Positions 6,099 to 60,971 of a DNA stretch of 64,000 nucleotides are shown piece after piece (position 1 is the first letter of the stretch; each line of letters begins with the position of its first letter). This DNA comes from a virus. Its lineage: Duplodnaviria; Heunggongvirae; Uroviricota; Caudoviricetes. Both the position numbers and the translations under genes were made by a program. Where the stretch lies: IMG/VR virus record IMGVR_UViG_3300031992_000020; one strand, 5' to 3'. The notes beneath the pieces were generated by a model. The model did no database searches, had not been told where the DNA came from, and was given only the letters and a program-made list of their open reading frames with translations.

Positions 6099-9000
6099 TT
6101 CTCAAAACTATGCTACCGTTATCCAGAATGTCATCAATTTTATAAATTTGATGACCAGGAGTTCCGTTGTATTTTTTGCTAACAAATTCAGTGCCACGGC
6201 GCATCCCAGTTACAACCAACAAACTACCACGCTTGAACCAAGAACGTTCAACTATTTGCTTTGTTCCATCTGGTCTACGCTGACTTATCTGTCTATCAAA
6301 CATTGCAAAGAACTCTTTCGTGAACTTAACTGTTACAACACTATTATCCGCAGTCAACAAAGTCACATTTGACTTCATTTTATCTTTCGCAATAACCGTA
6401 CCGCAAATACGATTCAATCTATAAATCGGAATATGCCCACGATATAGGCTCTCTACTATTGGCTCTTCCGGTAACACGTTATAATCACTAATACCATAAC
6501 GTCTTTTATTTACATTCGCAAGTTCATGTTGATGATCATAAAAACACATTACTTCCATTTCCCAACTGGAATAATTACCTGCCGCATATTTATTCCAATC
6601 ATCAACAAAAATCTTTTTATTCAATTGATAAAGCACTTCATCTTGATGGCCTTTCATCCATTCGCGCACTTTATCCATTTCATTCTGATAAATTTTATCC
6701 CAAATCTTTACATTTAATAACAGATTTCCATCTATTGGCACATCATATTTTCCATTTATAAAATTCAACGCTCTATCATCCAATACGAAGAAATCTCCAC
6801 GTTTACACTTGTCTTTCAGATACCTATTGAACTCAAATACCTTACGCTGTTCATTTAATTCATCTGGGATCATATTTCTTTGAATTAAGCCATTCATATT
6901 TTGCAACGTGACTCTCTTCTTACGATCACAAGTTGCATAAATATATGTTGCCATAATTTCTTTTCTTTCACCAAACTTATCAAAAGCTCCTGACTTAATC
7001 AAAGAAATCATTGGCTGTTTATTCAATCTTACTTTATTACAAAAGTCTGTAAAATTAAGATATGGACGATTCTTAATAATTTGCGCGATTACATCTTCAC
7101 CAACATTCAATAGACCTTTCATACCAAACATAATCGCATTTTCTTCAGCATTCGGTGTAAACCCATATTGAGAAATATTAATATCAATCGGCAATACTTT
7201 AATTCCACGACCTTTAATGTCATTAACCGCTTTCGCAATTTTTCCGTAATTTGTCTGTCCTTTTTCATCTGGATCAACAGCACCACTATTGACAATCAAA
7301 CATGCTGAATTCCAATATACCGGACTAAATTGTGTTGCCAATATAATTGTTTGAATACCAACAAAGCTATATGGCAAACTATGATTCAAGCTAAACGCAT
7401 ATCCAAGTTGTGGACGCACTGCGATATCCCAAATATAATCTGCATTCTGTCCAACTGCATCATATACTTTTTGTTTTAATTCTGGAATACGTTTTTGTTG
7501 TTTCTTCGCTACAATCTTACGAGCATCATTCGCATCTTTCAATGAAAACTTCGCAATATCTGGATCCATCAAAATCTGCATCATCTGCTCTTGAATTGCG
7601 CAACAACCATAATATGTATCACAATACTTATGCATCGCCGCAATCATTTTATCTGGCAATCCGCTTCGATGCATTTCAATATCAAATAACTGAATACCAC
7701 CATCACGAATACGAACATATCTATCCTGCTGACTTTCTGTGCCAGGTTCACTCATTAACCGAATCATTGCATTTGCCGCAGTCATTTCAAGAGGGTTGGT
7801 TGCTTTGATCATTTTTGCCATTGCTAATCCAACTCCACTATTGAACTGGAATACATCCAAAACATCACCTGCGGCAAGATGATCCCAAATTACATGATTA
7901 TTTGTATCAATATGCTCCGGATGAAGATATTTATCATATAATTCTCTTAAACTCAAATCTTCGACTTGCTTATCTGCTTTTAAAAGATTTAAACAAGTAA
8001 TAATCTTATCACAAACTTCTGTTACCAAGAAGTCATATTTTGTATCTCCCGCTGCTTCGGCCATATGAAGATCATAACAAGTTGTTAAATCTCCATCTTT
8101 ACCACGCATAATTGCCGCAGTATCATACAATGTTTCTGGATCATATAAAATTGTGCCAGATGCATGAATACCTCTGGACTTAACAATTCCTTCAATATTC
8201 AAAATAATATCTGCCAAGCCTGGATACTTTCCAACCTCAGCCATAACTGCTGGAACCGGACGCTTACCAGCTTCTTCATTTCCTTTTACACAATCTTCAA
8301 AAGTATACAAAATTCCACGAGGCTGAGGAATTAAAGAAGTTATATAGTTAGCTACGTCAACATCAATGCCATCTGGATATTCTTCACTTCTATACCCACG
8401 ACATGCTGTCTGAATTGCACTTCTTGTTGCTTCGGTTCCAAAAGTAACAACCTGAACCAATCCAAGCTCGCCACGTTCTTGTCTGATCTTTTCAAAAATC
8501 AATGGACGAATACTGGATGCCAAGTCAATATCAATATCGGGCAATTCTGCTCTTTCCATATTTAAGAATCTCCAATAAGGCAATCCCCATTTCATAGGAT
8601 CGAGCTGAGTAATGCCCAATAAATAATTACTCAAAAATCCTGTCGCAGATCCACGACCAGGGCCAACAATTGAACCACATTCCCAAAACAAATCAATGTA
8701 ATGTTTAAATGTATTGAAGTAAGCAAACAAACAAGTTCCTAAACGCTCACCAATATGTCTAATTACTTTTGCTTCGGTCTGGATTCTTTCAACATAATCT
8801 TCATGTTCTCCCCAGAATCCAATTTTTTCGTTCAATGCATCCCAAACATCATTAATCCATTGACGTTCTTGCGGCTCAGATGAAGTAAATAAATCACCAA
8901 GTAATTCATATACTCCATCTTTGCTAAAATCATCAGAATATGGATTATTATTGCCCCACCATGCAAATGCTTTTGGAGGGTCAATTTTAACAGTTGGGAT

Positions 9001-20531: not shown

Positions 20532-21515
20532 TTATTTAATACTGTAGCCATATTCTTTGGCTTTGTAAAAGTCTTGCCAATAATCTTCTCTCTCATTTAG
20601 CTTAGATTGATCACATTCCTCTATAACTTCGAATGTAAATTTTTCTAAACCTTCTTGATACATTGCAGGATATAATTTATTTTGTGTGCGAGGCTCCGCG
20701 TTTAACGCCCTCTTAATATGTTGCCGCCAGCGATCTGCAATATCAACTGCTTGTCCAACATAACACATTTGTGTTTCGATGTTTGTGATGCGGTAAATAC
20801 CAGTATGTCGTCCGTTGCCTATGACTCGACCCACGAGATCGGTATATGGCTTTTCATAGTAGACTTTCCAGATAACTTTTGCAATAGCTTCTCCGGCTTC
20901 TTGCGATATGCTTGGCACAATCTCTTCAAGTCTTCGTATGTCATTAAGTGTGTGTGGCCCCATTTGTAGAGAATGGAACTTAATGAAATTTTCTTCTTCT
21001 GCATGACGTTTTGCAACCTCAACTGCTGCGCTTGCGGCAGATTTTAATTCACTTAATTTTTTATCAAGTTCTTTCGCGGCATCCATTTTACGACGATTAG
21101 TGTCTTTAAATTGTTCCGCAAAATCTTCTTGCATTTGAATATATTCTTCTTGCCTTTTGTCGATCCAAACTTGACGTTCTGTCAGATATTTCTTTTTAAA
21201 TTCTTCTTCAGTTAATTCATATGACTATTTTAATTTTTCAACATTTTCAACTTGAGTGGCAATATCATCATTTAGTTCTTTCTTGCGTGTTGCCAATTCA
21301 TCAATTTTGAATCTATGCTCTACAATCTGGTTAGTTAATTCATTATCTTGTACAGTTAATTGTTCTAATTTTTCTTTATACTAATTAACTTCATACTAAG
21401 CTGTATTTATACTTGCTTGTAATCCATTATACTATTGAATATTTTTTTTGACTAAATAACCTGATATGATAGTAGCAATAATGCCAATGACAAGAAGAGC
21501 AATAATGATCCACAT
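20532..21515 (-). CDS. TM helix, coiled-coil and GIY-YIG nuclease domain protein; contains 4 in-frame TAG codons (predicted sense)
   Basis: RBS GGAGGACAAT then ATG at 21515; single open frame continues into track ORF 20532..21134 through TAGs at about 21432, 21396, 21381 and 21225; GIY-YIG motif YVGQ..R..H. Confidence 0.55.
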
Positions 21516-21535
21516 ATTGTCCTCCAGTCTAAAAT

Positions 21536-21566
21536 AGGGGATTGATAAAGCCTACCAATCCCCCAT
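21536..21566 (-). terminator. rho-independent terminator (GGGGATTG/CAATCCCC stem then T tract)
   Basis: lies downstream of the 21585..21860 gene. Confidence 0.5.
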
Positions 21567-22184: not shown

Positions 22185-22219
22185 GGTAAGATTTTTTCCT
22201 TTCTTTATCTTACATACAT

Positions 22220-22248
22220 ATTATATTAAAAATTTTTATAAAAATCAA
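22220..22248 (-). promoter_or_regulatory. sigma70-type promoter TTGATT-17-TATAAT
   Basis: reverse complement reads TTGATTTTTATAAAAATTTTTAATATAAT. Confidence 0.6.
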
Positions 22249-36295: not shown

Positions 36296-36762
36296 TATTC
36301 TACCTCATCTAAAGTTTTTGCAGTATTCAATAGGATCTGCTTTAATTGGTCAGTCATTTTAAAACGTGCGGCATTTACTTCAATAGAAGTTAAGAGATTA
36401 CCATTGTGCTGACGTTCACTTGCGGCTTTCCAATCAGCAAGCATTTCGACCAGATCAATTAAATTCATATCATTGATTCCATTTGCAAAATGCTCAGGAT
36501 GATGACGATATGTAGCATAATGATGATCCAGCGCCGGTTTCAGACCAGTTAGGCACTGTTTGTATTCTTCGCTATTGTATTCAGTGGTAGCAAGTTTAGG
36601 AGTATATTCAGCAAAAAGCTCTACTTCCGGGGATTCCAGCTTGGCGGCGTCATGATTGACGCCGCGGCTGGTCAATTTATCAGTGAAAAACCGAATATAT
36701 TTTCGGACTTTTTCAATATGTTTCTGTGTTTCAACACGACATTCATCAAGCGTCATCGTCAA
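36295..36762 (-). CDS. hypothetical protein
   Basis: ORF track. Confidence 0.35.
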   Translation of the reverse strand: MTMTLDECRVETQKHIEKVRKYIRFFTDKLTSRGVNHDAAKLESPEVELFAEYTPKLATTEYNSEEYKQCLTGLKPALDHHYATYRHHPEHFANGINDMNLIDLVEMLADWKAASERQHNGNLLTSIEVNAARFKMTDQLKQILLNTAKTLDEVE

Positions 36763-38149
36763 GTACCTCCTGGGCTTCTTCGATGTCAGGCGCAGTTGCT
36801 TCGTCCTTTGCGATACCTTCCAGTACCTTGAAAGAGAAGTTCTTGTGCTTGTATACAGCGAAGTTAGAACGGTTAAGGATACGGGCTACTACGCCTTCGC
36901 GCACATGGGTCTTACCAATAGGATCAGGCCCATCGAAATACTTCTCTACCTTACGGAGAACATATTCGCCGGCATTTACTTCGCATGGAGACCCAACATC
37001 GTCTGGAAGCTGAATCATATCAGGAATTATGAAGGTTTCAAACTCCATAACAGTATGTACACCCATCTGCTCACAACGTTCCTTGATCTGAGTAGGAGAA
37101 TATTCTACCACATCACCATCTTCGTTGACCATAGTCATACGATAGACATATACGTCACAACAAGGCTCAAAGTAAGCCAGAGTTCCGGTCTCATCGTAAT
37201 AAGCACCATCGTAACCATTGCTTGCATCGCATCCATAAGAGAAAGTAGTAGTAGATCCATACTGCTTTACGAACTCAGGATCCTTTACCTTGCTGTTAGC
37301 AACCTGAGACATAATAGGCGCACCCTTAGGCCCCTGGAAACCAACAATCTCGTAATAAACTACTTCACCCTTGCGGAGCTTGTTTTCAAACTTAGCCGCC
37401 ATAGCCATACGGAAATTATCAGAATCATAGAATCCACCAGAACGCTTTCCATCCAGGACAACACGACGAGTTCCAGTGATGTATCCATACTCCTTATAGT
37501 CCTTACCATGACGATGGAACAGTTTATCGAGCCAGGTCTGCTTGGTATGAACCAAAGGCAGATATCCAGTACGACCAGAAGTACCATGCATTTTCAAAGT
37601 AAGCTGAACAGTGTCGCCAGGCTTGAATGCATTCATGTTATAGGCAAGCTGTGCAGTATCAACATGCTCATAGAAAGTAGGAGCAATGTTAGCTTTTGCC
37701 TTCTTAGCAGTCTTAGATCCAGGCGCGCCAGGAGTGCGAGACTTATGAGGGATATACTTCTGACAGATCAATTCACCATTCAGAGTATCAATAGTGTCTC
37801 CAACCTTCAAATCAGAAATCTTGCAGAAATCAGCCAAACAGGTGAGAGGCATATAAAGACCATCGGACTTCTCGCCACGGAGCTTCAATGCCTTGATATT
37901 GCGCTTCTCAGGGTCCAGATATCCGCCAGCCTGCTTGCCATTTTCATCCTTGCGGCGAACCAGATCATTTACCGCGCAAAAGCGCTCAGAAAGCTGACCA
38001 TCAACAGGGAAATATACGCCAATATCCCCGATCTTGGTGTCAAGACCAACAATAGTGTCATTACCGAAGAAAGTAGCAATTTGAAGACGATCAGCATTAG
38101 AGTGCTTGCGCAGATGCTCAACTCTTACAACAAAACCAGTATATGCCAT
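36746..38149 (-). CDS. hypothetical protein, possible nucleotidyltransferase/RNA-ligase-like with a tRNA-binding-like N-terminus
   Basis: 467 aa; KMHGTS motif I-like; weak evidence. Confidence 0.3.
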   Translation of the reverse strand: MAYTGFVVRVEHLRKHSNADRLQIATFFGNDTIVGLDTKIGDIGVYFPVDGQLSERFCAVNDLVRRKDENGKQAGGYLDPEKRNIKALKLRGEKSDGLYMPLTCLADFCKISDLKVGDTIDTLNGELICQKYIPHKSRTPGAPGSKTAKKAKANIAPTFYEHVDTAQLAYNMNAFKPGDTVQLTLKMHGTSGRTGYLPLVHTKQTWLDKLFHRHGKDYKEYGYITGTRRVVLDGKRSGGFYDSDNFRMAMAAKFENKLRKGEVVYYEIVGFQGPKGAPIMSQVANSKVKDPEFVKQYGSTTTFSYGCDASNGYDGAYYDETGTLAYFEPCCDVYVYRMTMVNEDGDVVEYSPTQIKERCEQMGVHTVMEFETFIIPDMIQLPDDVGSPCEVNAGEYVLRKVEKYFDGPDPIGKTHVREGVVARILNRSNFAVYKHKNFSFKVLEGIAKDEATAPDIEEAQEVLDDDA

Positions 38150-41976: not shown

Positions 41977-43482
41977 TTAAGCGTGGATGCAAGCGTAACG
42001 CTCTGAATCAATCGCTTCCAGCATCAGATCCCAACCGGTCTTTCCGGTCAAGATGCTCTGGAAGATGGAAGGACTGAAACCAGAGACATAGCTCACATAG
42101 TGGTTGCCAATCATAGGAATGTTGGCCTGGCGGGCATCAACGTTCCAATAGATCAGCTTAGGCATCTTCAAGCCATGGCTATTGAACTTGCGCTCAATGG
42201 TTTCCATGACAGACTCGGCATTTGCGGTGCACATGCCGCCGTTGCGATGCCAGTAGTTACCGGTTGCAGAGTCGAACTCCATGTCGCTGATAACGATCAT
42301 GTACTCAGGCAATGCGGCACCAGTGCGGAGCGCGGTATCCAGCACCATATCGAAAGCGACTTCGATATTAGTGTTCTCGCAAAGGTTGGTGCGCACAATG
42401 CGATATACCTTGTCGCAGAAGTCTACACCAGCAGTCTCAATCAGCTGAGGACGAGAGCTGAAACTGATGTAGTGATTGTGCCAAGGACCCTGGTTACGCT
42501 CTGCGCAGTACATACCAAGTGCCGTAGCAACATTGATAGGAGTACCGCTCATGGAGCCAGAGGTGTCGATCATGCAAAGAGCATCCAGCTTTGCACCCTT
42601 GAAATAATCGGTCAGATTATCCCAATACTTGTTGATCATAAGACGATCAACATTGTCCATATCTACATGGGTATTGCCCCAGTAGTTAGGACGCATAAGG
42701 TCGATTGCCTTCTCAACAACCTCATAAGGATAAAGCGTTCCCGCATTTACCTTAGTATTTTCGTCCTTAGCGAACTTCTCATACTTCGCCTTGATGATAT
42801 CGCGGCGAGCGAAGGCGTTCTTATAGATAAGACCAGCCTTGGAAGGGATCTTATCGAACTCGATTTCGTCCCAACGGTTAGCGGACATAAGAACTTCCAG
42901 AACATTGATGCGCGCACGCATAATGGACAGAGTCTTACGATACTCCTTATGGGACATACCGAGATACTGACGAGTGATATTGGCCAGACGAGCGGTCTCA
43001 GCAGAACTTGCGTTCTCAGACTTCAACCACTTTGCCAACAGAGAAGGGGTCTTGCACTCGATGTCCAGAGCAAGCTGACGCTTGATCAGAGCAAGGGCAT
43101 CATTCATCAGAGGAGTCCCTTCCAGAGCGTAGAGGTCATCCCAACGACCGAACTCAGGGAAGAATTCGATGTTCTTGCGGATGGACTCACGGGTAGACTT
43201 CTCCGTTGCGGCCCAATGCACAACAGTGCGGAAAAAACGACGCTCTCCCTGACCTCCGCGCACGTCACGGATATAGAAAAGCATCTTCATAGCCAGCTCT
43301 GCGTTCTCGGCAAAAGCCTTCTTGAACATAAGGATAACATCCTCATCAGAGCGGTTACGCATAGCCGCACCCATAGCAAACATATCCAACAGGTCACTGT
43401 TGGTAGTCTTATGCGTAATGCCATCATTCTCGGTCAGAGTGTAGTTGGTAGCGGCCTTCATTCCATTAAGTAAACTATTCAT
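41977..43482 (-). CDS. TROVE plus vWA domain protein (Ro60/Rsr-like, DUF2828-type)
   Basis: C-terminal MIDAS DTSGSMSG; N-terminal TROVE-like region. Confidence 0.55.
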   Translation of the reverse strand: MNSLLNGMKAATNYTLTENDGITHKTTNSDLLDMFAMGAAMRNRSDEDVILMFKKAFAENAELAMKMLFYIRDVRGGQGERRFFRTVVHWAATEKSTRESIRKNIEFFPEFGRWDDLYALEGTPLMNDALALIKRQLALDIECKTPSLLAKWLKSENASSAETARLANITRQYLGMSHKEYRKTLSIMRARINVLEVLMSANRWDEIEFDKIPSKAGLIYKNAFARRDIIKAKYEKFAKDENTKVNAGTLYPYEVVEKAIDLMRPNYWGNTHVDMDNVDRLMINKYWDNLTDYFKGAKLDALCMIDTSGSMSGTPINVATALGMYCAERNQGPWHNHYISFSSRPQLIETAGVDFCDKVYRIVRTNLCENTNIEVAFDMVLDTALRTGAALPEYMIVISDMEFDSATGNYWHRNGGMCTANAESVMETIERKFNSHGLKMPKLIYWNVDARQANIPMIGNHYVSYVSGFSPSIFQSILTGKTGWDLMLEAIDSERYACIHA

Positions 43483-43551
43483 TCCTTTTTCTCTCCTTTT
43501 GTTTTTGTGTTATAGGCTTGGACAAGCCTATTCATTTCTTATTACATATAT

Positions 43552-43580
43552 ATTATATAAAAAATTTTTATAAAAATCAA
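43552..43580 (-). promoter_or_regulatory. sigma70-type promoter TTGATT-17-TATAAT
   Basis: reverse complement reads TTGATTTTTATAAAAATTTTTTATATAAT. Confidence 0.6.
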
Positions 43581-45339: not shown

Positions 45340-45783
45340 AATTACTCAATGTCCTTTCAAAGAATTAAGGGCTCCAATCGTCTCACACTCTTATGACGAC
45401 TGAAGCCCTCCAATAACGAATACAAAATAGAAAGGAAGGAACGCCATGGATAGATGACCAGTCTATCCAATTCTATTTTATATCAGTCGTATAAAAGAGG
45501 ATGGCTTTACGAGATCGTAACCGTTATTGGTTACCTCAAAGATATACGATTGATATAAGCAATTTAATTATGTATAATATATATAGTATATAATATGTAT
45601 AATTATAATTATAATTGCTGTTTAACGATCTCCTACTTTTCAATTACAAGTTACCTACTTTTACAAGGGGCCGCGGGCTTGTAATTTACTTCGTAGAGCC
45701 TTTTGCTTTTACAATTTCATGCTTGTAAATCTATCTTCTAAAAGAAATATTTGCTGTAATTCCTTGGCCCATCTTATGTATAT

Positions 45784-45812
45784 ATTATATAAAAAATTTT
45801 TTAAAAAGTCAA
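45784..45812 (-). promoter_or_regulatory. sigma70-type promoter TTGACT-17-TATAAT
   Basis: reverse complement reads TTGACTTTTTAAAAAATTTTTTATATAAT; it points into about 440 nt of non-coding DNA. Confidence 0.55.
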
Positions 45813-46229: not shown

Positions 46230-47259
46230 TCATATATACTTATTGTGTGCAGTTTGTATTTCTGTGTCATCTAATTTTGTATAAATTAATGTGGTATTTA
46301 TTTGTTTGTGTCCTAATAATCTTTGTACTTGCTCAATAGGCATGCCGTTATGTAAGGCTTGGGTGGCTGTGGTGTGCCGAAATACGTGTGGTGTAATTTT
46401 ATGGTTTGGATCTATGTTTGCGCGAAGGGCTAAATTTTTTACTAATTTTTGGATGGCGCGTGGAGTAGTTTGAGCTGATTTAGTTTTATGAGCTGGTGCA
46501 AATATATATTCACTATTTATTGTTCGTAATGCTAAATATTTACGTAGGCTAACTTCTGCTTCGGCATTTAAATATACGTTTCTTGAATAACCACCTTTAC
46601 CATGCTCTATAAACACGGATTTATTATTCCAATCAATATTTTTTAATTTTGCATTACACATTTCAGACACTCTGCATCCTGTGCTATATAAAAAATCTAT
46701 AATTGCTTTTTCACGGATATTTTTGCAAGCTTCTCGTAGATATTCTAATTCTAACGAAGATAATGGCTCTCGCGCGACAGCATCACTTTTAATTGGTTTT
46801 ATATTCTTTGCTGGATTTCTTGTGATTAAATTTTCTGATACGCACCATTCATAGAAAGAATTTATTACACGTCGCATTGTATCTAATGTTACATTTTTAA
46901 CTCCACGAGATTGCTTATAATTATATAAATAAACTCGAATATCATTAGTTGTTACGTTAGTAAATGGCTTTCCTATTGATGATAAAAAATTTCCTAATGT
47001 TAGTTTGTATAATGATAAAGTGCCAGGTGATTTTTCTTCGATAGCTTTTGATGCAATAAATAATTTTAAAACCTATGGGTATCCTTCTTGTAGAATAATT
47101 AATTCTAATTCTTTCTTTTCGATGCTATATTTTTGAGCAATTTCATCGAGATGATGTAAAATATCTTCTATTTCTCTAATATTTAAATTAGGCAATTTGT
47201 TTCTTAGTTCAATTAAAAATTCAGTTTTAAAGATTTCATAACTATCCATGTTTAAGCAC
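46230..47259 (-). CDS. tyrosine recombinase (Xer/Rci-like) with one in-frame TAG (47073-47075)
   Basis: C-terminal catalytic R..HxxR..Y; an N-terminal SAM-like core-binding domain is only present if read through the TAG linking track ORFs 47073..47276 and 46230..46877; RBS AAGGTGG. Confidence 0.65.
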
Positions 47260-47327
47260 CACCTTATTTTATACAAAGATTAAATGACGAAGTTCATCAT
47301 CTAATGTTTATATAAAATTACGTTATA

Positions 47328-47656
47328 TTTTAGATGGTACGTTAAACAATAATTTAAATGCTAAAATACCAATCAAATGGAATAGAGATACTCAAGCAAA
47401 TCGTAGGTCATATTTAAACTTTGATAATGTATATACTACATCTGATTGTAGTATTAATGGAGTATATTGGTACTCAGATGATGCTTCTTATATAAGCAAT
47501 GCTCCAACAGGAATAGTGAAAACAACAAGTGGCTCTATTTATGCTATTGATACTGCTTGGGGAAAAATTCAAATCTGTTTTAATTATAATTCTTTAAATT
47601 TCTTTATTAGAAATTATCCGTATCAAACAACTTGGAAAAAAATATCACTAGAATAA
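47328..47656 (+). other. start-less tail-fibre C-terminal cassette (open frame, TAA end)
   Basis: about 110 stop-free codons in AT-rich DNA on the plus strand with no ATG/GTG/TTG and no RBS. Confidence 0.4.
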
Positions 47657-47712
47657 TTATATCATATATGAGCGCATCTACTACGTCACTAGCAATAGAG
47701 ATTTGGATAATA

Positions 47713-48046
47713 CGCACTAGCTAAATATATGCTATTTATTTATCATATATGTTCCATACTTTATCATAACATGATAAGACATATACTTTATTAGATCCTA
47801 CACAAGAATATAAAAACCATGCATAATGTGGATCATTTGAACCAGGTTCATATGTATATCCTATGGCAAAACCAAAACCTGCGCGTGTTAAACGATAACA
47901 ATATATAGCTTCGCTTTTAGTTGATATTGAACTTAAATATTTTCCTAGCTCAGCATTAACCGTTGAGACAGAGCTAGCAGGATATCCTGTAATACAAGGA
48001 ATATACTAATAATGCTCACTTATAGTTAGTTTATTATTGTAAATAA
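47713..48046 (-). other. start-less tail-fibre C-terminal cassette (one in-frame TAG)
   Basis: open frame with no start codon, head-to-head with the plus-strand cassette at about 48040. Confidence 0.35.
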
Positions 48047-48372
48047 GTTTATATAATTTGATTTTATCAAATATTTACAATAATAAAGTTAATAAAAGCA
48101 TAGCTTTTTATGATCACGGTCTTATTGGAGAAAGCCAGAATGCTAATAATATTATAGAGCCTGGCATATATCAATAGGTTAATGCTGTAGTACCGAGTAA
48201 TTGGCCTACAGGAGCATATAATAGTATATTATTAGTCTTAAGTTTAAGAGATGGTACTGATAAAATTTAGTATGTATTTAGTATGAATGCTCACGCAATT
48301 TATCAAAGATCTAATTATGCTGGTACGGGTTGGACTGATTGGCATATATAGACTGCTGGAACTATATATTAA
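48038..48372 (+). other. start-less tail-fibre C-terminal cassette (three in-frame TAG, TAA end)
   Basis: open frame with no start codon on the plus strand. Confidence 0.4.
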
Positions 48373-48373
48373 T

Positions 48374-48716
48374 ATCCAGTAGGAATAGCATAAGCACCTA
48401 CAACGGTATATTTACCAACCGGTAAACTTGAATTCATGTGAAAATTACCAGAAGCTATTCGACAAGTATAATGAACCGTAAAATCTCCAGTGATTGAACA
48501 TATTGTCATACTTGGATCTGTTCCAGCTTCACGAGGAAAACCATTTAATATAAAACCAGTTTGTACAGTCGTAGTTTGAAATTCAACACATACAGCACAA
48601 ATTTGTCAAAACCTTGCCCATCCGCCTTTAAGAACATTAACATTTCCATTAGATGCAGTTGCTTGGCGTAAAGGCGGTATTAAATTATTTAAATTAAAGT
48701 TTAATGTATAAACCAT
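48374..48716 (-). other. tail-fibre cassette or second fibre ORF
   Basis: open frame after an in-frame TGA, ends with TAA; cassette-like. Confidence 0.3.
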
Positions 48717-49357
48717 CCAACATCAGCTCTGCACGTAAGAGTTGTTCCACTGTCCTAAAAAGCCCAAACGTAAATTTTTTCATTAGCTGTAACATTAATT
48801 ATATCGCCATAAGATAATCTTGTTGCATCAGCAGTGGTGGCATTCACTGTTTCATAAACTGCAATTGATCCAGTAGTATTTGATCCATAACCTATACCGC
48901 AAATACGTCTACCGTTTCCATTCTATCCAAAAGTTTCTAATACTTCCATTACTATAACACCTGCTTTTGTACAAGTAAAACTATGTATTATAGTCCATGT
49001 TGAATTAGCTACGTTTGTATTTGTTGCGCTACGAGAGGAAATAGCATGATTAGAAGTCGCCTTATTATTGTTTAGCGCATTAACGGCAGCACTGGTTGCT
49101 AATGTATCATTCGTATTTGAGTTTATCGCAGAACTTGTAGGGATATCGCTCCAAGTTGGTGCACCATTAGCCACACCCTTTAAGAACTTATATGTCCCAG
49201 CAGTAGAGCATACCGGCACGTGAGTCTTGTTACTGTTATGCGTAGTAATCGCGCTAGTAATCTATCCACTTGTCCAAGTTTTAATTCTACTAAAAGATTG
49301 ATGTAAAGCAGGCCCACTTACAAAAGATTTTACATCTTCATAAGCATTATTTGCCAT
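48701..49357 (-). CDS. tail-fibre-like protein (Ser/Thr/Asn-rich), constant N-terminal gene with 3 in-frame TAG
   Basis: RBS AGAGGAGAATG..ATG at 49357; TAGs at about 49262-64, 48923-25 and 48755-57; TAA stop. Confidence 0.55.
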
Positions 49358-49395
49358 ATTTTCATTCTCCTCTCTTAATAATTTATCATATATAT

Positions 49396-49424
49396 ATTAT
49401 ACGCTAAATTTTTTGAACTGTAAA
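49396..49424 (-). promoter_or_regulatory. sigma70-type promoter TTTACA-17-TATAAT
   Basis: reverse complement reads TTTACAGTTCAAAAAATTTAGCGTATAAT, upstream of the fibre gene. Confidence 0.5.
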
Positions 49425-51071: not shown

Positions 51072-51157
51072 ATAAGCAAGACCCATTACATAAAAGCATA
51101 GAATGGTTGCTAATTGTTCAAATTCGCTGTTAGGGTCTTTCTTTATCTTACATATAT

Positions 51158-51186
51158 ATTATATAATAATTTTTTATAAAAGTCAA
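51158..51186 (-). promoter_or_regulatory. sigma70-type promoter TTGACT-17-TATAAT heading a tRNA cluster
   Basis: reverse complement reads TTGACTTTTATAAAAAATTATTATATAAT. Confidence 0.55.
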
Positions 51187-54057
51187 TCAGTCAAAGCAAT
51201 CTCCAACCTGATTAATCATAACCTCTACACCAAGAGGAGTATCATAATCAGTTATAATGTACATCGGAGTGCCGGGCAGCTTAGGTTGCGGCTGATCTGG
51301 CGGAATAATAGGTCTTTCATATGGACGATTTATAAATGTCATAACATTACCTTGTTGTGTCTGACTTTCCATATGATAGCCAAGCACAGTATATTCTCGC
51401 CATTCGTATTGTATTTCAGTACCATCGTCATTATATTGAGGTACTTCAACAGTAACAAACCAATCATTGTCCGCGCTCAACTTTACGCTCTTGATATGCA
51501 CACCATCTGCAAACAATTTTACATGTATAGCACTTGGCCGCAAAAGATCATAACCCTCATCATTCCATATCTTGCGAATACCTATCACCGTTGTAGGAAC
51601 GTCTTCTGGAATATCAATTATAGTCGTAGGTACAGGAGTTACTGATGGAATTGGATCCGGAGTAAGCGTTGGACGTGGTGTGCGCACAGGCTCCGGCGTT
51701 GGGCTAGGCGTAGCAGTTGGTGTAACGACTGGCTTGGGCGTCGGGGTGCTTGTTGGCGCAGGAGTAATTCTGGTATTTTCAAAATGAAGAGTGTAAATAT
51801 CCTTATCAAAAATACCATTCTCATTTGCTGGCACATGGATAACTGCAACATTTGCCGCGCGTTCTTCGCCAGGCGCGGGTGTTACAGTTGTCAAAGCTGA
51901 ATCATCTGAAATATAAATATTAGATATGAAATAATTATCATGTGAATCAATTTCAGTGATTGTATAATCGCCTGGGATAATCTTACCAAATCCTCTGTGA
52001 TTATCATAAATCACAAATTTATCTATTTCAGAATTGGCATTGAACTCTACTTTTGCTTCTACACCATCTGGGAAACTTGGTCCTGTGATAATAAATCTAA
52101 AATCAACAGGAACATTATCGTACTCTTTCAAATGTTTTTCAATTCTAAATCCACCAATAGGAGGAGTTGCTGTGGGCGCAGGTGTATATGTAGGGGTTGG
52201 CCGCACAGTTGGAGTAATTGTAGGAGTAGCCGTAGGCGTTGGGCTAGGAGTTACTGAAATAGTAGGAGTTGGTGTACTCGTAGGAGTCGGACTTGGAGTT
52301 ATTGTAGGTGTCACCGTAGGAGTAGGTGACGGAGTTATAGTTGGAGTAGGACTCGGTGTAACCGTAGGTGTAGGTGTTGGAGTTGGGGTTACAGTAGGAG
52401 TCGGACTTGGAGTAGGAGTAATTGTCGGTGTAGGACTTGGAGTTGCTGTTGGAGTAGGGCTAGGTGTTGGAGTTGGTGTAGGTGTTGGAGTTGGTGTAGG
52501 TGTAATTGTCGGAGTTGGACTTGGAGTTGGTGTAGGAGTAGGTGTTGGCGTTGCTGTTGGGGTAGGTGATGGAGTAGGAGTTACAGAATATTCAACTGCG
52601 GGTAATGGGAAATCTTGGATTTTATTATCTTGTGGAGTATATAAAGTCGCAGTTGTATTTGTCAAAAGTGGAATACCACCTTGTGATCCATTAAAATCAT
52701 ATGTGCCATATTCACCAGCAACAGTTTGTGGATTACTTAATTTAATGCTATAATGTAATTCCACAGAATCACAGAGCAATAGATTAGTATTAATAATCCA
52801 CTTAAATGAATCGTTTTCTTCTTCACCGTAATATATTAATGTAAATAAATCGCCAAAATGGAATGTGATATTATCACTAGTCGTAGCATTAATACGTTCG
52901 CCATTCCAAATTACATACATTCTACTTGCGTCTGGAATAAAATCCATATCATATTCATTACCGAGATTATCAATTCCAGAACCCATATAGTCCTTTACAT
53001 AGCTTCCAGTAGTAACATATGATATTTCTTTACCAATATTGCTTAATGAAAAGCTTCTGCCGCAATTCAAATATTGCATAAAAGATTGGGCATATTGGCT
53101 TGTTCTATAAGAGAAATCACCGCTATCAACATAAACTGCATAGCAATTATAACCATGCTGTTGCGCAGTTGCATAAGAAAGCATTGCATAATATAATGCT
53201 TTATCGGAAGACACAGCATGAGTAGATAGATTTCCTCTAATGTAACTGGTAGCACCATTATAGTAGTTACGAGGATCCCATCCCCACGTCTGTTCAAACA
53301 AATCTTGATCACGATTAATGGCTTGCGCCACTTCTACAAAATAATCATACCAACTTGCTGGTGCGGCGTAGGTACCATATTTGAATAAATATGTATCTGG
53401 TCCAGCGACTATATTACCATCATGCTCTTGGACTACGACAGTCTCTCCTGCTGTTTTAGTCCCACTTAAACCAAGTTGATTGTTCTTTTGATATACGTGA
53501 GTATCACCATCGCTAAGTATAATTAAATACTTATTAGATGCAGGTACTCCAGCATGATTGTCAAGCATATAAGTGCCTGTCAAGATACCTGAATTCAGAT
53601 TTGTGCCGCGATGGGTATATTGAGAAGGATGGTTCTTTGCTATCACAGTACCATCCAGTTGCCGATAAATTTTGGACTTACCATAAAAATATACTATTCC
53701 GACATTAATGTCATCTCTAGTATCAGCTGCAGACATATATTGCTGTAATAAATGCTCTGCCGCATTATCAATAGACAAGGAAGCATCTACTACAAATACA
53801 ATATCATATACATCAACACTAGTGGTAGGTATTTTCAACATGATGTTTGACTCATAGTTTTCATCCAAATTAGTAGCCGTTTTAGAAACGGCTACTTTAT
53901 TTAGATTCACAGATGAAATAGTAGGTACATATACCTCGCCACTATCTATTGTTATTTCTGGAGTATATTCATCGCTTTCTATCGCTGTCTCAGCAATACC
54001 AGCAAATGGCATCATTGCAAGTGCTATTGCTAACAATATTGCTAAAAATCTTTTCAT
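51187..54057 (-). CDS. secreted vWA-domain protein with a long Pro/Thr-rich repeat linker (adhesin or cell-wall-binding-like)
   Basis: signal peptide [20 protein letters not shown]; MIDAS VVDASLS; (TP/SP)n tract. Confidence 0.55.
51640..52570 (-). repeat. coding tandem repeat encoding (T/S)P-(T/A)P units
   Basis: ggtgtaggtgttggagttgg-type periodic repeats inside the 956-aa ORF. Confidence 0.7.
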
Positions 54058-54514: not shown

Positions 54515-54955
54515 TTACTTGTATAATTGATATTTCTTTGAAATTTTCCATGCGGTTTCATCGTCCAACGGGCGGAAACCTATACAAGTAAGAGTGCGGC
54601 CAGTGCCATCATCATCGACCATCTCTGGTTTCAATTCTGTAAGACACGCGTCCCATATGAGGAAAAAGTCTACACCTTCCCGCAACCCAAGCTCTTCGGC
54701 TATTGTTTTGACTTTAAGTAATTGTTTTAAGTTTTTAGCTTCGCAAACGGTTTTTGTAAATATGCCGTTAAACCAATCTTCATAAACATCTTTTTGGATT
54801 GTAAGCCCAACATAATAGTCATTGCTTAGACCCATTTTCTGCCCATTACCGCGAATTGCGCGTGATATAAACGCGATTGATGCATGGGCAACCTGCGCCG
54901 CAAGTTTTCCAGGTGACATTTGAAGATCTTTGCGAGCTATAATAAGTTGACGCAT
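54515..54955 (-). CDS. PTH2-family peptidyl-tRNA hydrolase
   Basis: GKLAAQVAHAS motif typical of Pth2; RBS AAGGAG. Confidence 0.5.
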   Translation of the reverse strand: MRQLIIARKDLQMSPGKLAAQVAHASIAFISRAIRGNGQKMGLSNDYYVGLTIQKDVYEDWFNGIFTKTVCEAKNLKQLLKVKTIAEELGLREGVDFFLIWDACLTELKPEMVDDDGTGRTLTCIGFRPLDDETAWKISKKYQLYK

Positions 54956-56322: not shown

Positions 56323-56406
56323 ATATACAAGAGGCTTTTGCATATTTTCTCGTCTAAAATATTTTATATACATTGCTGTATGCCTCTTTCTTTATCTTAC
56401 ATATAT

Positions 56407-56435
56407 ATTATATAATATTTTTTTATAAAAATCAA
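56407..56435 (-). promoter_or_regulatory. sigma70-type promoter TTGATT-17-TATAAT heading a tRNA cluster
   Basis: reverse complement reads TTGATTTTTATAAAAAAATATTATATAAT. Confidence 0.55.
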
Positions 56436-57466
56436 TCTAAGTATTTATAAACCCAATCTTTAAATGTAATTGTTTCGATAAACTTAATATAAATATATCC
56501 TTCTGTTCTATATGCCGCAAATTCATTTAATTGTTCCGGATCATTATATATAAATTCAATAAAATCTTCTGTTGACATATTAAAATTTTGTTTAAACCTA
56601 ACAAAATATAATTTTAATAAATCATAATAGTTTTGCGGGATAGACGGACAATTATTTTTAGGATATGTTAAACCCATAAAATCAAAATAAATTCTAAAAA
56701 ACATTGGCACGATACTTATCTTGAAAAAGTTATAAAGTTCATCTGTCATAATGTTTTCTTGTTGAGCTTTTTCAAAATAGTCTAATGCAATACCTAATGT
56801 TGATTTCATATAATCAGGCAATGATTTAAAGAAATAACCATTTTTATGTTTATTGTCAGATAATGATCCTTCATGTTCAAGCCAATTATAAGTTAATAAT
56901 TTTAATTCATGTGATATTAAGCCATATTGAGTTAAAACGCATTGTACTTTTAAAGTAAAATTAACATCTTCATCATAATTTACTTCATCATATGAAATAT
57001 TATATTTATTCAAAAAAGATTTTTCATAAAATTTACCATGAGTACCTTGCACAGGACGATCAAAAAAATTAGTTATAACCCCATTTGGTTGAATCATTCT
57101 TGTTGAAGTAATGATATAATTTTGAGTTTGATTAGTTTTGATAATTCGTTTTATTTTATCAAAAGTATTGTCCTCAAAATAATCATCTTGATCTATAAAA
57201 GTTATCCACTCGCCTGATGCTTCTTCAAGTCCATGCTGTCTACCTGCACGAGGAAAGCCATAGTGTCTATCATTTTTAATAATTTTAATATTTAAATCAT
57301 TAAAATTTGAAATTAAATCATTATAAAGATTCTCGGAACAATTAGAACAATCATCAGATAAAATAATTTCAATATCATCAACACAATAATTTGTGTTAAT
57401 ACTGGCTAATAATTTAAGTAAACAATCGCCAGGATTATAAGTTGGCACTATTATAGAAAAGAGCAT
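56432..57466 (-). CDS. family 2 glycosyltransferase
   Basis: IIVPTYN..DDCS GT2-like motifs. Confidence 0.65.
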   Translation of the reverse strand: MLFSIIVPTYNPGDCLLKLLASINTNYCVDDIEIILSDDCSNCSENLYNDLISNFNDLNIKIIKNDRHYGFPRAGRQHGLEEASGEWITFIDQDDYFEDNTFDKIKRIIKTNQTQNYIITSTRMIQPNGVITNFFDRPVQGTHGKFYEKSFLNKYNISYDEVNYDEDVNFTLKVQCVLTQYGLISHELKLLTYNWLEHEGSLSDNKHKNGYFFKSLPDYMKSTLGIALDYFEKAQQENIMTDELYNFFKISIVPMFFRIYFDFMGLTYPKNNCPSIPQNYYDLLKLYFVRFKQNFNMSTEDFIEFIYNDPEQLNEFAAYRTEGYIYIKFIETITFKDWVYKYLD

Positions 57467-58152: not shown

Positions 58153-58179
58153 TAACTAAATAGCTCCATTCTTTATATT

Positions 58180-58269
58180 CGGCCCTCCAGGGATTCGAAC
58201 CCTGACTACCTCCTTCAGAGGGATATAACGGTTTTAGAGACCGGTGTTCTACCATTGAACTAGAGGGCT
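58180..58269 (-). tRNA. suppressor tRNA, anticodon CTA (reads UAG); class II with long variable arm and G73, so a Ser-type scaffold is predicted
   Basis: loop CTCTAAA flanked by stem CGGT/ACCG; D stem GTTC/GAAC; variable arm about 22 nt (CCCTC..GAGGG); T arm CAGGGTTCGAATCCCTG; acceptor AGCCCTC/GAGGGCC (A1-C72 mismatch). Confidence 0.75.
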
Positions 58270-58379
58270 ATAATTCTCTTCTTTATTTATTTCAAAAATA
58301 TTATAGCATATTTTTTTTACCTTGTCCAGTCACTTTATTTAGGATTGCGCGCATATGACCAATTTGGATTAAAAAATTG

Positions 58380-60917: not shown

Positions 60918-60942
60918 TCCCCTTTCTTTATCTTACATATAT

Positions 60943-60971
60943 ATTATATAATATATTTTTAAGTTTTTCAA
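60943..60971 (-). promoter_or_regulatory. sigma70-type promoter TTGAAA-17-TATAAT
   Basis: reverse complement reads TTGAAAAACTTAAAAATATATTATATAAT. Confidence 0.55.

What the first reader, a model, noticed from the sequence alone, without database searches (positions are those of the whole stretch)
46230..49424. Candidate shufflon-like invertible tail-fibre locus: start-less C-terminal cassettes on both strands beside a tyrosine recombinase
A minus-strand tail-fibre gene (49357 to 48701) has a promoter, a strong RBS and an ATG. Downstream lie four long open frames that lack any start codon or RBS and read like receptor-binding C-termini. Two are on the opposite strand (47328-47656 and 48038-48372). 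Two are on the same strand (47713-48046 and 48374-48716). Two of them meet head-to-head at about 48040. An AAGTTTATATAA-like motif recurs at cassette 5-prime boundaries (47300, 48040) and, degenerate, at the end of the constant gene (48700). The adjacent recombinase (46230-47259) is Xer/Rci-like, and Rci-type tyrosine recombinases drive shufflon inversions. This layout would allow host-range or phase variation by DNA inversion.
Basis: inference. Interest (0 to 1): 0.8.

Follow-up and report, generated by a model that had tools for sequence, protein, structure and literature searches.

The report
Phage tail-fibre shufflon with Xer-like invertase
A large phage that reads the TAG stop codon as an amino acid carries a small fibre gene whose tail end can apparently be swapped, by DNA inversion, for any of three or four silent alternative endings stored next to a recombinase; the design is already known from a few other phages, and no inversion was actually seen here.

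Summary
The start-less cassettes and the adjacent tyrosine recombinase are real, and the shufflon reading is well supported by architecture and comparison. Three details were wrong.

- **Recoding:** The phage recodes TAG, and a suppressor tRNA(CUA) lies at 58179-58270. This explains the apparent stops in the recombinase, the fibre gene and cassettes B and C.
- **Joint:** The constant/variable joint lies inside the "constant" gene at 49064-49071, not at its end. Residues 1-98 are constant. The last 120 residues are a fifth, currently expressed cassette (E).
- **Crossover site:** It is not AAGTTTATATAA. It is the 8-bp core ACAATAAT within TWWACAATAATWWR. The core sits in frame (L/Y-N-N-N) at the 5' end of cassettes E, C, B and A. 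D has a degenerate copy plus an in-frame TGA.

Simulated inversions give in-frame fibres of 218, 193, 198 and 196 aa.

Related strains keep the same N-terminus and flanks but carry unrelated cassettes, and homology ends exactly at the core. More distant phages and Clostridia MAG contigs (recombinase 38-83% identical) repeat the fibre, inverted-site cassettes and recombinase layout.

The recombinase is Xer-like, and no Rci reference was available for comparison. No alternative orientation of these cassettes was found: three other assemblies match the window. The closest known system is the Rin shufflon of Bifidobacterium prophages. This is a new member of a known kind.

The parts
46230..47249 (-). 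Xer-like tyrosine recombinase (339 aa, one in-frame TAG), the putative invertase
   Evidence: Pfam PF00589 5.5e-39 plus SAM-like N-domain. NCBIfam XerA type 224 bits against a cut-off of 220. PDB XerA 5hxy 8.7e-29, with the R, K, H-x-x-R, H and Y motifs aligned.
47261..47323 (.).
   Evidence: Inverted repeat I2, 31-nt arms, 81% complementary. The flank is conserved in L001 and L016, with perfect 12-bp arms in L016.
47343..47356 (+). Site A (core ACAATAAT at 47346-47353), at the fixed recombinase-proximal flank
   Evidence: Homology with L001 and L016 ends at 47357/47358. Logan contig L015 ends exactly at 47353.
47354..47656 (+). Silent cassette A (about 100 aa, no start codon, no TAG, ends TAA)
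   Evidence: Open frame. Codon score +0.23 in its own frame only. The simulated const-A fusion is 198 aa.
47736..48032 (-). Silent cassette B (about 98 aa, one TAG, no start codon)
   Evidence: The const-B fusion is 196 aa after two simulated inversions.
48030..48043 (-). Site B (core at 48033-48040)
48044..48073 (.).
   Evidence: Inverted repeat I3 48019-48045 / 48072-98, 85%. The junction is 88% identical to two junctions in L005.
48074..48087 (+). Site C (core at 48077-48084)
48085..48372 (+). Silent cassette C (about 95 aa, three TAGs)
   Evidence: Weak PHROG hits to tail and minor-tail proteins, 3.8e-5 to 7e-3. The const-C fusion is 193 aa.
48369..48689 (-). Cassette D, probably decayed: in-frame TGA at 48606-48608, same strand as the expressed gene
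   Evidence: Its 5' end is paralogous to A's 5' end (inverted repeat I1, 33 nt, 79%). The const-D fusion truncates at 126 aa.
48690..48703 (-). Degenerate site D (TAAACTTTAATTTA; core ACTTTAAT has 2 mismatches), in direct orientation to the constant-gene site and overlapping the fibre stop codon
48701..49063 (-). Cassette E, the currently expressed variable C-terminus (120 aa, two TAGs, stop TAA at 48701-48703)
   Evidence: Homology with L001, L005 and L010 stops at 49064.
49061..49074 (-). Constant-gene site (core at 49064-49071), encoding L-N-N-N at the constant/variable joint
   Evidence: Four different continuations follow this core in related contigs.
49072..49357 (-). Constant N-terminal part of the fibre-like gene (residues 1 to about 95, one TAG)
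   Evidence: 96-99.6% identical in L001, L005 and L010. Weak PHROG tail-fibre hits, E=0.0057 for this protein and E=3.7e-4 for the L001 allele.
49396..49424 (-). Promoter of the fibre gene (TTTACA-17-TATAAT), of the phage's recurrent promoter type
58179..58270 (-). Suppressor tRNA(CUA), needed to translate the recombinase, the fibre gene and cassettes B, C and E (context, outside the finding)
   Evidence: ARAGORN. Rfam tRNA 55.4 bits. Sequence.

Best explanation
This is a multi-cassette site-specific inversion system (a shufflon) that changes the C-terminal, presumably receptor-binding, part of a small phage fibre protein.

**Layout.** One promoter, ribosome-binding site and ATG (49357) drive a constant 98-residue N-terminus. 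It ends in the peptide A-L-N-N-N, encoded over the 8-bp core ACAATAAT. Downstream lies the expressed cassette E. After it come the decayed cassette D and three intact silent cassettes, C, B and A. Each silent cassette lacks a promoter and a start codon, and each is preceded in frame by the same core. C and A are in inverted orientation relative to the constant-gene core. B becomes inverted after one flip.

**Proposed mechanism.** The adjacent Xer-like tyrosine recombinase (46230-47249) is inferred to synapse two inverted cores and exchange strands within them. That would flip the DNA between them and fuse another cassette in frame to the constant N-terminus, giving products of 193-218 aa.

**Recoding.** The recombinase, the fibre gene and several cassettes contain TAG codons. 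All of them can be translated only when the phage's suppressor tRNA(CUA) is active.

**Shown:** the anatomy, in-frame cores, coding character of the silent cassettes, intact catalytic motifs, module boundaries at the core between strains, and conservation of the layout with homologous recombinases.

**Inferred:** that inversion occurs, that this recombinase does it, that exchange is within the 8-bp core, and that the protein is a receptor-binding fibre.
For: 1. **Cores.** Four exact TWWACAATAATWWR sites occur in the window, all within 2 kb. They are the only matches in 64 kb, against 0.10 expected. Each lies in the reading frame of a long open frame, at its 5' end. The orientations are (-)(+)(-)(+), as inversion requires.
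2. **Fusions.** Simulated inversions at the core give uninterrupted fusions of 193, 198 and 196 aa, against the native 218 aa.
3. **Coding character.** The silent cassettes have positive codon-usage scores only in their own frame, similar to the constant part and the recombinase. Open frames of this length are rare in shuffles (3 of 2000).
4. **Simple relative.** L001 is 97.6-98.5% identical in the flanks. It has the same N-terminus, a different expressed C-terminus and one 272-codon start-less opposite-strand cassette. These are bounded by a perfect 18-bp inverted repeat GCGCTAAACAATAATTTA.
5. **Other strains.** L005 and L010 share the N-terminus with yet other cassettes. Homology always stops at 49064, the 3' edge of the core.
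6. **Assembly branch.** The Logan contigs L015 and L009 from one run overlap by k-1 = 30 nt. L015 ends exactly at the last base of the A core.
7. **Distant relatives.** The pattern recurs with recombinases 83% (L016), 75% (L017), 61% (L018) and 54% (L019) identical, and in Clostridia MAG contigs at 38-44% (L028, L054, L023). In each, a fibre gene carries ..L-N-x-N/K.. at the joint, alternating start-less cassettes carry inverted copies of YTAAAC-type cores, and the recombinase is adjacent. A lysis module follows in L019 and L028.
8. **Enzyme.** The recombinase has the conserved R, K, H-x-x-R, H and Y motifs aligned to XerA.
9. **Second lineage.** P0124 and P0125 share an N-terminus and diverge right after ..STLNTN.
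10. **Precedent.** The design matches the published Rin shufflon, including a directly oriented site just after the expressed gene (PMC6109161).
Against: - No alternative arrangement of these particular cassettes was found.
- L006, L008 and L009 come from three other assemblies. They show the window's order at 99.97-100% identity. L008 and L009 span the whole locus; L006 covers it only as far as cassette B.
- The k=31 contig L009 passes unbroken through the constant, D, C and B sites. Inverted molecules were therefore below detection in that run.
- The graph branch at site A is better explained by a co-occurring strain with another cassette than by inversion.
- Protein searches found no constant-to-A, B, C or D fusion products.
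- Cassette D is defective, so some decay has occurred.
- 'Tail fibre' rests on weak hits (E 4e-4 to 6e-3), and the gene is not inside an obvious tail module within this window.
- Recombinases 33% identical sit between tail and lysis genes of cultured Clostridia phages without evident inverted repeats, and are annotated as integrases.
Confidence: 0.8

Rival explanations
1. Frozen or decaying shufflon. The locus was built by, and once used, site-specific inversion. It no longer switches in this phage lineage or does so extremely rarely, and cassette E is effectively fixed.
For: Three other assemblies show the window's arrangement, and a k=31 contig has no graph branches at four sites. Cassette D has a mutated core and an in-frame TGA.
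Against: Cassettes A, B and C remain open and look coding. The four cores are identical. The recombinase is intact with catalytic motifs. Consensus assemblies cannot see minority orientations. In Mu and P1 one orientation also dominates lytic stocks (established knowledge).
Confidence: 0.13
2. Graveyard of fibre C-termini. The cassettes are leftovers of horizontal replacement of the fibre C-terminus by homologous recombination between co-infecting strains. The recombinase would be an ordinary integrase or resolvase unrelated to them.
For: Strains carry entirely different cassettes behind an identical N-terminus. Recombinases 33% identical in cultured phages are annotated as integrases and show no obvious inverted repeats.
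Against: Leftovers would not stay open for about 100 codons on the opposite strand, would not each keep an in-frame inverted copy of the junction core, and would not recur in the same alternating pattern next to homologous recombinases across 38-83% divergence. Between lineages the core differs along with the recombinase: ACAATAAT, ACACTAAT, ACGACATT.
Confidence: 0.04
3. Ordinary small independent genes with unusual start codons, for example fibre chaperones or accessory proteins.
For: D has an ATG overlapping the upstream stop, and one gene caller called it as a 115-aa gene. C has an in-frame TTG near its 5' end.
Against: A and B have no ATG, GTG or TTG start in frame near their 5' ends and no ribosome-binding site. 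All cassettes begin with the same in-frame core as the internal joint of the fibre gene. D's frame contains TGA.
Confidence: 0.03

Closest known systems
Rin shufflon of Bifidobacterium prophages Bb423phi1, Bl157phi1 and Bl30698phi1 (Mavrich et al. 2018, PMC6109161)
   Same: It has a constant N-terminal coding part of the receptor-binding protein and several cassettes of about 95-100 residues that are mutually dissimilar. A short (11-bp) asymmetric repeat lies upstream of each cassette. A XerD-like, armless tyrosine recombinase flanks the cassettes on the far side. A directly oriented site sits immediately after the expressed gene's 3' end.
   Different: The site sequence differs (TTCCCTAACCC against TWWACAATAAT). 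The host phylum and phage type differ: temperate actinobacterial siphophage against a TAG-recoded phage with 26 tRNAs, probably from a 165-kb contig. Inversions were observed for Rin in reads, but not here. Sequence relatedness of the two recombinases was not tested.
Tail-fibre shufflon of BV01-like Phocaeicola vulgatus phages (PMC13596623, 2026 preprint)
   Same: It is a window of about 1.7 kb overlapping the distal end of a tail-fibre gene and flanked by a recombinase. Directional 10-bp motifs separate non-homologous cassettes.
   Different: The motif differs (TGGGAGAACT), as does the host phylum. All configurations were detected in reads there, but not here.
Mu Gin, P1 Cin and p15B Min tail-fibre inversion systems
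   Same: DNA inversion swaps the C-terminal part of a tail fibre behind a constant N-terminal part. p15B has multiple cassettes and crossover sites (established knowledge; summarised).
   Different: Those systems use serine invertases with an enhancer and Fis. Here the enzyme is a tyrosine recombinase.
R64/IncI1 plasmid shufflon (Rci, sfx sites, pilV)
   Same: This is multiple inversion by a tyrosine recombinase at short asymmetric sites with a conserved core of about 7 bp. It selects one of several C-termini for a constant N-terminus (established knowledge).
   Different: The target there is a conjugative pilus adhesin, not a phage fibre. The recombinase here scores as XerA/XerC/XerD type. 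No Rci reference could be retrieved for a direct comparison.

Membership tests
Phage-encoded tyrosine-recombinase fibre/RBP shufflon (Rin type) | Constant N-terminal coding segment with a crossover site inside the expressed ORF | tested here: met
   The core lies at 49064-49071 inside the 218-aa gene. The N-terminus is conserved, and the C-terminus is replaced at exactly this point in L001, L005 and L010.
Phage-encoded tyrosine-recombinase fibre/RBP shufflon (Rin type) | Several promoter-less, start-less C-terminal cassettes in both orientations, each preceded in frame by the same short repeat | tested here: met
   Cassettes A(+), B(-) and C(+) carry the exact core; D(-) carries a degenerate core. 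In-frame fusions are predicted.
Phage-encoded tyrosine-recombinase fibre/RBP shufflon (Rin type) | Adjacent tyrosine recombinase of the simple (Xer-like, no arm-binding domain) type | tested here: met
   PF00589 plus a SAM-like core-binding domain. NCBIfam XerA type is above its cut-off. The closest PDB relatives are XerA, XerC and XerD.
Phage-encoded tyrosine-recombinase fibre/RBP shufflon (Rin type) | The repeat is rare elsewhere in the genome | tested here: met
   There are 4 matches, all in the locus, in 64 kb, against 0.10 expected. The pattern was derived from these sites, so the test is partly circular. Independent support comes from the 18-bp perfect inverted repeat in L001.
Phage-encoded tyrosine-recombinase fibre/RBP shufflon (Rin type) | Alternative orientations of the same cassettes observed in reads or between genomes | tested here: inconclusive
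   Only one arrangement is seen in the window, L006, L008 and L009.
Phage-encoded tyrosine-recombinase fibre/RBP shufflon (Rin type) | The target protein is a tail fibre or receptor-binding protein | tested here: inconclusive
   PHROG tail-fibre hits are weak, E 4e-4 to 6e-3. In relative L019 the small fibre gene follows a PF03406 tail-fibre gene, and in L028 the site lies in an 846-aa tail fibre. The structure prediction for cassette A failed (pLDDT 45).
Phage-encoded tyrosine-recombinase fibre/RBP shufflon (Rin type) | Recombinase orthologous to Rin | not tested
R64-type shufflon (Rci/sfx) | Rci-family recombinase | not testable with these tools
   The best family matches are XerA, XerC and XerD. 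The R64 record could not be retrieved for a direct comparison.
R64-type shufflon (Rci/sfx) | The target is the pilV adhesin of a conjugative thin pilus | tested here: not met
   The context is a phage: tRNA array, replication genes, lysin, and no pil genes.
Serine-invertase fibre switches (Gin/Cin/Min) | Serine recombinase (resolvase/invertase fold) | tested here: not met
   The only recombinase in the locus is PF00589 tyrosine type.

The most novel reading that the evidence does not exclude
This would be a fibre shufflon in a stop-codon-recoded, possibly strictly lytic, large phage. The invertase gene and most cassettes contain TAG codons. If TAG decoding is confined to late infection, as proposed for such phages but not tested here, invertase synthesis and fibre switching would also be confined to that phase. 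A single burst would then release progeny with different fibre tips. The window would belong to a wide, so far undescribed family of Clostridia-phage shufflons whose YTAAAC-type core always encodes the L-N-x-N/K joint of the fibre.
Probability: 0.25. Interest if true: 0.65.

Novelty: new member of a known kind. Interest (0 to 1): 0.45.

Why it matters
Inversion-driven switching of fibre tips lets a phage hedge its bets on host range, and only a handful of tyrosine-recombinase versions have been described (Rin, BV01-like).

This locus and its relatives suggest the design is also common in uncultured gut or rumen-type phages of Clostridia, including TAG-recoded ones. That environment is inferred from the names of related MAG records, not from sample metadata.

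The conserved core gives a simple sequence handle (YTAAAC.. at an L-N-x-N joint next to a Xer-like recombinase). It can be used to find such loci and to avoid mis-annotating the recombinase as a lysogeny integrase or the silent cassettes as non-coding DNA.

It also explains why assemblies of these phages break at this spot. Cassette content differs between co-occurring strains exactly at the core.

Tried and rejected
- **blastn of the locus against 50,697 phage records:** no match.
- **IMG/VR scans with the recombinase and the fibre protein:** no relatives.
- **Head-to-head junction pattern in IMG/VR:** one hit, in a giant-virus MAG. It was not examined and was set aside as a probable chance AT-rich palindrome.
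- **The single metagenome DNA scan, with the left-flank 24-mer:** it returned only the L001 contig.
- **Exact-protein look-ups of fragments of cassettes A and D:** nothing on record.
- **Word-index search with A+B+C+D concatenated:** no hit at E<=0.01. No constant-cassette fusion or homologue of the silent cassettes is therefore known.
- **Full HMMER search with the constant fragment:** only 5 proteins.
- **All-against-all BLASTP of 12 cassettes from three strains:** essentially unrelated. Shuffling could therefore not be shown by shared cassettes in different positions.
- **AlphaFold2 on cassette A without an alignment:** pLDDT 45, so no fold search was run.
- **R64 record for a direct Rci comparison:** not in the collection.
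rejected. It lies 26-39 nt 5' of the true core, in fixed flanks, and is absent from the head-to-head junction of L016.
- **The graph branch at site A as evidence for inversion:** rejected. The same contig set shows no branch at the partner sites.
- **Cultured phages phiCp-D and TPELB_ph1:** their 33%-identical recombinases sit between tail and lysis genes, but no convincing inverted repeats were found.
Full report
**1. What is in the sequence**

The window is phage DNA with 26 tRNA genes. One of them is a suppressor tRNA with anticodon CUA at 58179-58270.

Under the standard code, the recombinase and the fibre-like gene are broken by stops, and every one of those stops is TAG. With TAG read as sense:
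- the recombinase is an intact 339-aa protein (46230-47249, minus strand);
- the fibre-like gene is an intact 218-aa protein (49357-48701, minus strand, ending in TAA).

In alignments of recombinase homologues, TAG positions mostly face Gln (5 of 6 by inspection). TAG-containing genes in the window include the lysin, the recombinase and the fibre gene. The large replication genes between 3 and 28 kb have none.

| Cassette | Strand | Coordinates | Codons |
|---|---|---|---|
| A | + | 47288-47656 | 122 |
| B | - | 47736-48074 | 112 |
| C | + | 48043-48372 | 109 |
| D | - | 48369-48716 | interrupted by TGA at 48606-48608 |

A and B have no ATG, GTG or TTG start in frame near their 5' ends. D has an ATG at 48716 that overlaps the fibre stop.

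Three open stretches of at least 100 codons in this 30% GC region were reached in only 3 of 2000 shuffles. A codon-usage score trained on 18 long genes of the window is positive for every cassette in its own frame, at +0.21 to +0.38 bits per codon. That is similar to the constant part of the fibre gene (+0.24) and the recombinase (+0.22). For A, B, C, E and the long part of D, the score is negative in the other five frames.

**2. The real repeat and the real joint**

A related contig, L001, matches the window at 98.5% (51015-49064) and 97.6% (47357-46221). The 1.2 kb between those blocks is unrelated. L001 contains:
- a fibre gene with the same first 98 residues (...TLATSAAVNALNNN) and then a different C-terminus;
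- a single 272-codon start-less frame on the opposite strand;
- then the recombinase.

The two points where homology to the window ends carry a perfect 18-bp inverted repeat, GCGCTAAACAATAATTTA.

Returning to the window with this sequence, the same element sits in frame at five places:

| Position | Sequence | Location |
|---|---|---|
| Inside the fibre gene | CTAAACAATAATAAG | 49075-49061, minus |
| 5' end of D | TTAAACTTTAATTTA (degenerate) | 48704-48690, minus |
| 5' end of C | ATTTACAATAATAAA | 48073-48087, plus |
| 5' end of B | same as C | 48044-48030, minus |
| 5' end of A | TTAAACAATAATTTA | 47342-47356, plus |

The pattern TWWACAATAATWWR occurs four times in the 64-kb window, all in this locus, against 0.10 expected. 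The invariant core is ACAATAAT.

The constant/variable joint is therefore in the middle of the 'constant' gene.

**3. Does the layout work as an inversion switch?**

The orientations, reading from the constant site leftwards, are: constant site (-), D (-), C (+), B (-), A (+). Without D this is the canonical shufflon pattern of two-cassette segments bounded by inverted sites.

Simulated inversions at the 8-bp core gave these in-frame products:

| Fusion | Length | Note |
|---|---|---|
| constant-E (native) | 218 aa | present state |
| constant-C | 193 aa | one inversion |
| constant-A | 198 aa | one inversion |
| constant-B | 196 aa | two inversions |
| constant-D | 126 aa | truncated by TGA |

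D also has two mismatches in the core. It lies in direct orientation immediately after the expressed gene, so I read it as a decaying cassette.

The fibre gene has a good promoter (TTTACA-17-TATAAT, 49424-49396), of the same type as a promoter-like element repeated at least six times in the window. None of the weaker consensus matches inside the cassette region lies upstream of a cassette 5' end, and the number of matches found (15) is below the shuffle mean of 21.

**4. The recombinase**

- It has PF00589 plus a SAM-like core-binding domain.
- It scores above the NCBIfam cut-off for the XerA-type model, at 224 against 220 bits. It scores far below the cut-offs for the XerC, XerD and FimB/E-type invertase models.
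- Its closest solved relatives are XerA, XerC-like and XerD. The alignment shows the catalytic Arg, Lys, His-x-x-Arg, His and Tyr, and these are invariant across 16 homologues.
- It is therefore an armless Xer-like enzyme, as described for Rin. No Rci reference was available for a direct comparison.

**5. Comparative evidence**

*(a) Strains.* L005 and L010 share the constant N-terminus at 96-99.6% identity but continue after the core with other sequences. Four different continuations are now known. L005 has at least four silent cassettes, with two head-to-head junctions 88% identical to the window's. The 12 cassettes of the window, L001 and L005 are essentially unrelated to each other.

*(b) Assembly graph.* In run SRR9006730, contig L015 (47353-42832) ends exactly on the last base of the A core. 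It overlaps L009 (50889-47324) by 30 nt, which is k-1 if these contigs were built at k=31 (my understanding of the Logan assemblies, not stated by the tool). The graph therefore branches right after the core. L009 itself is unbroken at the other four sites. The branch is therefore best explained by a second strain with another cassette, not by inversion.

*(c) More distant relatives.*
- L016 (recombinase 83% identical) has a long fibre gene with ...YTTLNNK|FANY, an expressed cassette, a head-to-head pair with ATACAATAATAAA on both arms, and a recombinase-proximal cassette with GCGTTAAACAATAAG.
- L017 (75%) has a cassette with GCGCTAAACAGTAAT next to the recombinase.
- L018 (61%) has a 17-nt, 94% complementary inverted repeat with the shared core ACACTAATATAAGT.
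- L019 (54%, also TAG-recoded) has a PF03406 tail fibre, a 442-aa protein, a 165-aa small fibre and five alternating start-less cassettes. Its inverted repeats of 48, 24 and 23 nt share the core ACGACATT. The recombinase, holin and SH3 lysin follow.

*(d) Reference genomes.* Contigs of Lachnospiraceae, Oscillospiraceae and Clostridiales MAGs carry recombinases 38-44% identical. These are flanked by two to four inverted copies of CTAAACTCAAATTT, CGTTAAACAGCAAA or TAAACAGTAATTTA. Each copy is in frame at ...L-N-S-N/K... of a fibre gene or a start-less cassette. A holin-like gene and a lysin follow in L028.

*(e) A second fibre lineage.* P0124 and P0125 share an N-terminus and diverge right after ...STLNTN.

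The association of this recombinase family with YTAAAC-type cores at the L-N-x-N joint of a fibre is therefore conserved over large distances. The core sequence differs between lineages together with the recombinase.

**6. What is missing**

No contig shows the window's own cassettes in another order. L006, L008 and L009, from three other assemblies, are colinear with the window at 99.97-100% identity. L008 and L009 span the whole locus, while L006 reaches only to cassette B. No constant-to-A, B, C or D fusion protein exists in the protein collections. Raw reads could not be examined.

Inversion is therefore inferred, not shown. If it occurs it is infrequent, or one state is favoured in the sampled populations.

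The fibre assignment is also weak for this particular protein (PHROG tail fibre E=0.0057; 3.7e-4 for the L001 allele). It is supported mainly by synteny in relatives. A single-sequence structure prediction of cassette A failed.

**7. Comparison with known systems**

The closest described system is the Rin shufflon of Bifidobacterium prophages. Its published features are (PMC6109161):
- a constant part (Rc) and variable cassettes (Rv) of about 95-100 residues, only 6-30% identical to each other;
- 11-bp rix sites;
- a XerD-like armless tyrosine invertase at the far end;
- a directly oriented site right after the expressed gene.

A similar tail-fibre shufflon was recently reported in BV01-like Phocaeicola phages (PMC13596623). 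Programmed inversions in prophage tail-fibre genes are known to be common (PMC9881135). Mu Gin, P1 Cin and p15B Min do the same job with serine invertases. The R64 shufflon uses the tyrosine recombinase Rci on a pilus adhesin.

The present locus works like these systems and meets the architectural criteria of the Rin type. Orthology to Rin or Rci was not tested.

**8. Verdict**

Three corrections apply: TAG recoding, the true site and joint, and five cassettes with one decayed. The enzyme is Xer-like rather than Rci-like.

It is a new member of a known kind. Its modest novelty lies in its setting, a TAG-recoded phage with many tRNAs. A contig of 165,652 nt carries the identical fibre fragment. 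It also points to a broad, apparently undescribed family in Clostridia phages.

Confidence that it is a functional or recently functional shufflon is about 0.8. Interest is 0.45.

Noticed in passing
window 58179-58270 (-), and TAG codons window-wide: Suppressor tRNA(CUA), 92 nt with a long extra arm. In-frame TAGs occur in the lysin, recombinase, fibre gene, 649-1320 and 20532-21566, but in none of the large replication genes between 3 and 28 kb. TAG positions in the recombinase mostly face Gln in homologues, consistent with TAG-to-Gln recoding of late genes.
   Followed up: partly
window 45771-45812, 51136-51188, 56385-56437, 22196-22248, 60922-60961, 43547-43580 (all minus strand): A recurrent promoter-like element of about 50 nt, TTGAYTTTTATAAAAAWTTTTTATATAATATATATGTAAGATAAAGAAAGG, with a -35 box, 17-nt spacer, -10 box and conserved leader. 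The fibre gene's own promoter (49424-49396) is of the same type.
   Followed up: partly
window 47261-47323; L016 about 1925-1965: A palindrome lies between the recombinase start and site A, with perfect 12-bp arms (ATTAAATGATGA/TCATCATTTAAT) in L016. It may be an operator or promoter for the recombinase. Several independent contigs end nearby: 47216 (L008), 47228 (L004) and 47268 (L002, L003). The L008 end fits a k=141 overlap to a branch about 2 nt after the A core. The others are unexplained.
   Followed up: partly
window 51187-54057 (-): A 956-aa secreted protein with a signal peptide and long Pro/Thr-rich linkers. By eye it looks like a vWA-like N-terminal region followed by a Gram-positive surface-protein-like C-terminal part. 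That is unusual cargo for a phage. It has no TAG codons.
   Followed up: no
window 36746-38149, 41977-43482, 54515-54955: RNA-repair and translation-related genes near the tRNA array: an RNA ligase (phrog_968, 7e-68), a Ro/TROVE-like RNA-binding protein (phrog_850, 7e-122) and a PTH2 peptidyl-tRNA hydrolase (Pfam mark on L008).
   Followed up: no
L028 5341-7487 (Lachnospiraceae MAG contig CANREG010000001.1): In this relative the recombinase gene itself lies between two inverted sites (5900-5890 and 6928-6938). Two near-duplicate two-cassette segments flank it, so the recombinase gene may itself be invertible.
   Followed up: no
L103 (Clostridium phage phiCp-D) and L104 (Terrisporobacter phage TPELB_ph1): Cultured Clostridia phages carry a 33%-identical Xer-like 'integrase' in the same position, between the last tail gene and the holin. 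TPELB_ph1 also has a second integrase elsewhere. No clear inverted repeats were found, so the role of the Xer-like gene there is open.
   Followed up: partly
L019 15526-16089: The 54%-recombinase relative also encodes a protein with an Mtd_N domain (PF18454), the target-protein type of diversity-generating retroelements. It lies several kb downstream of its shufflon.
   Followed up: no
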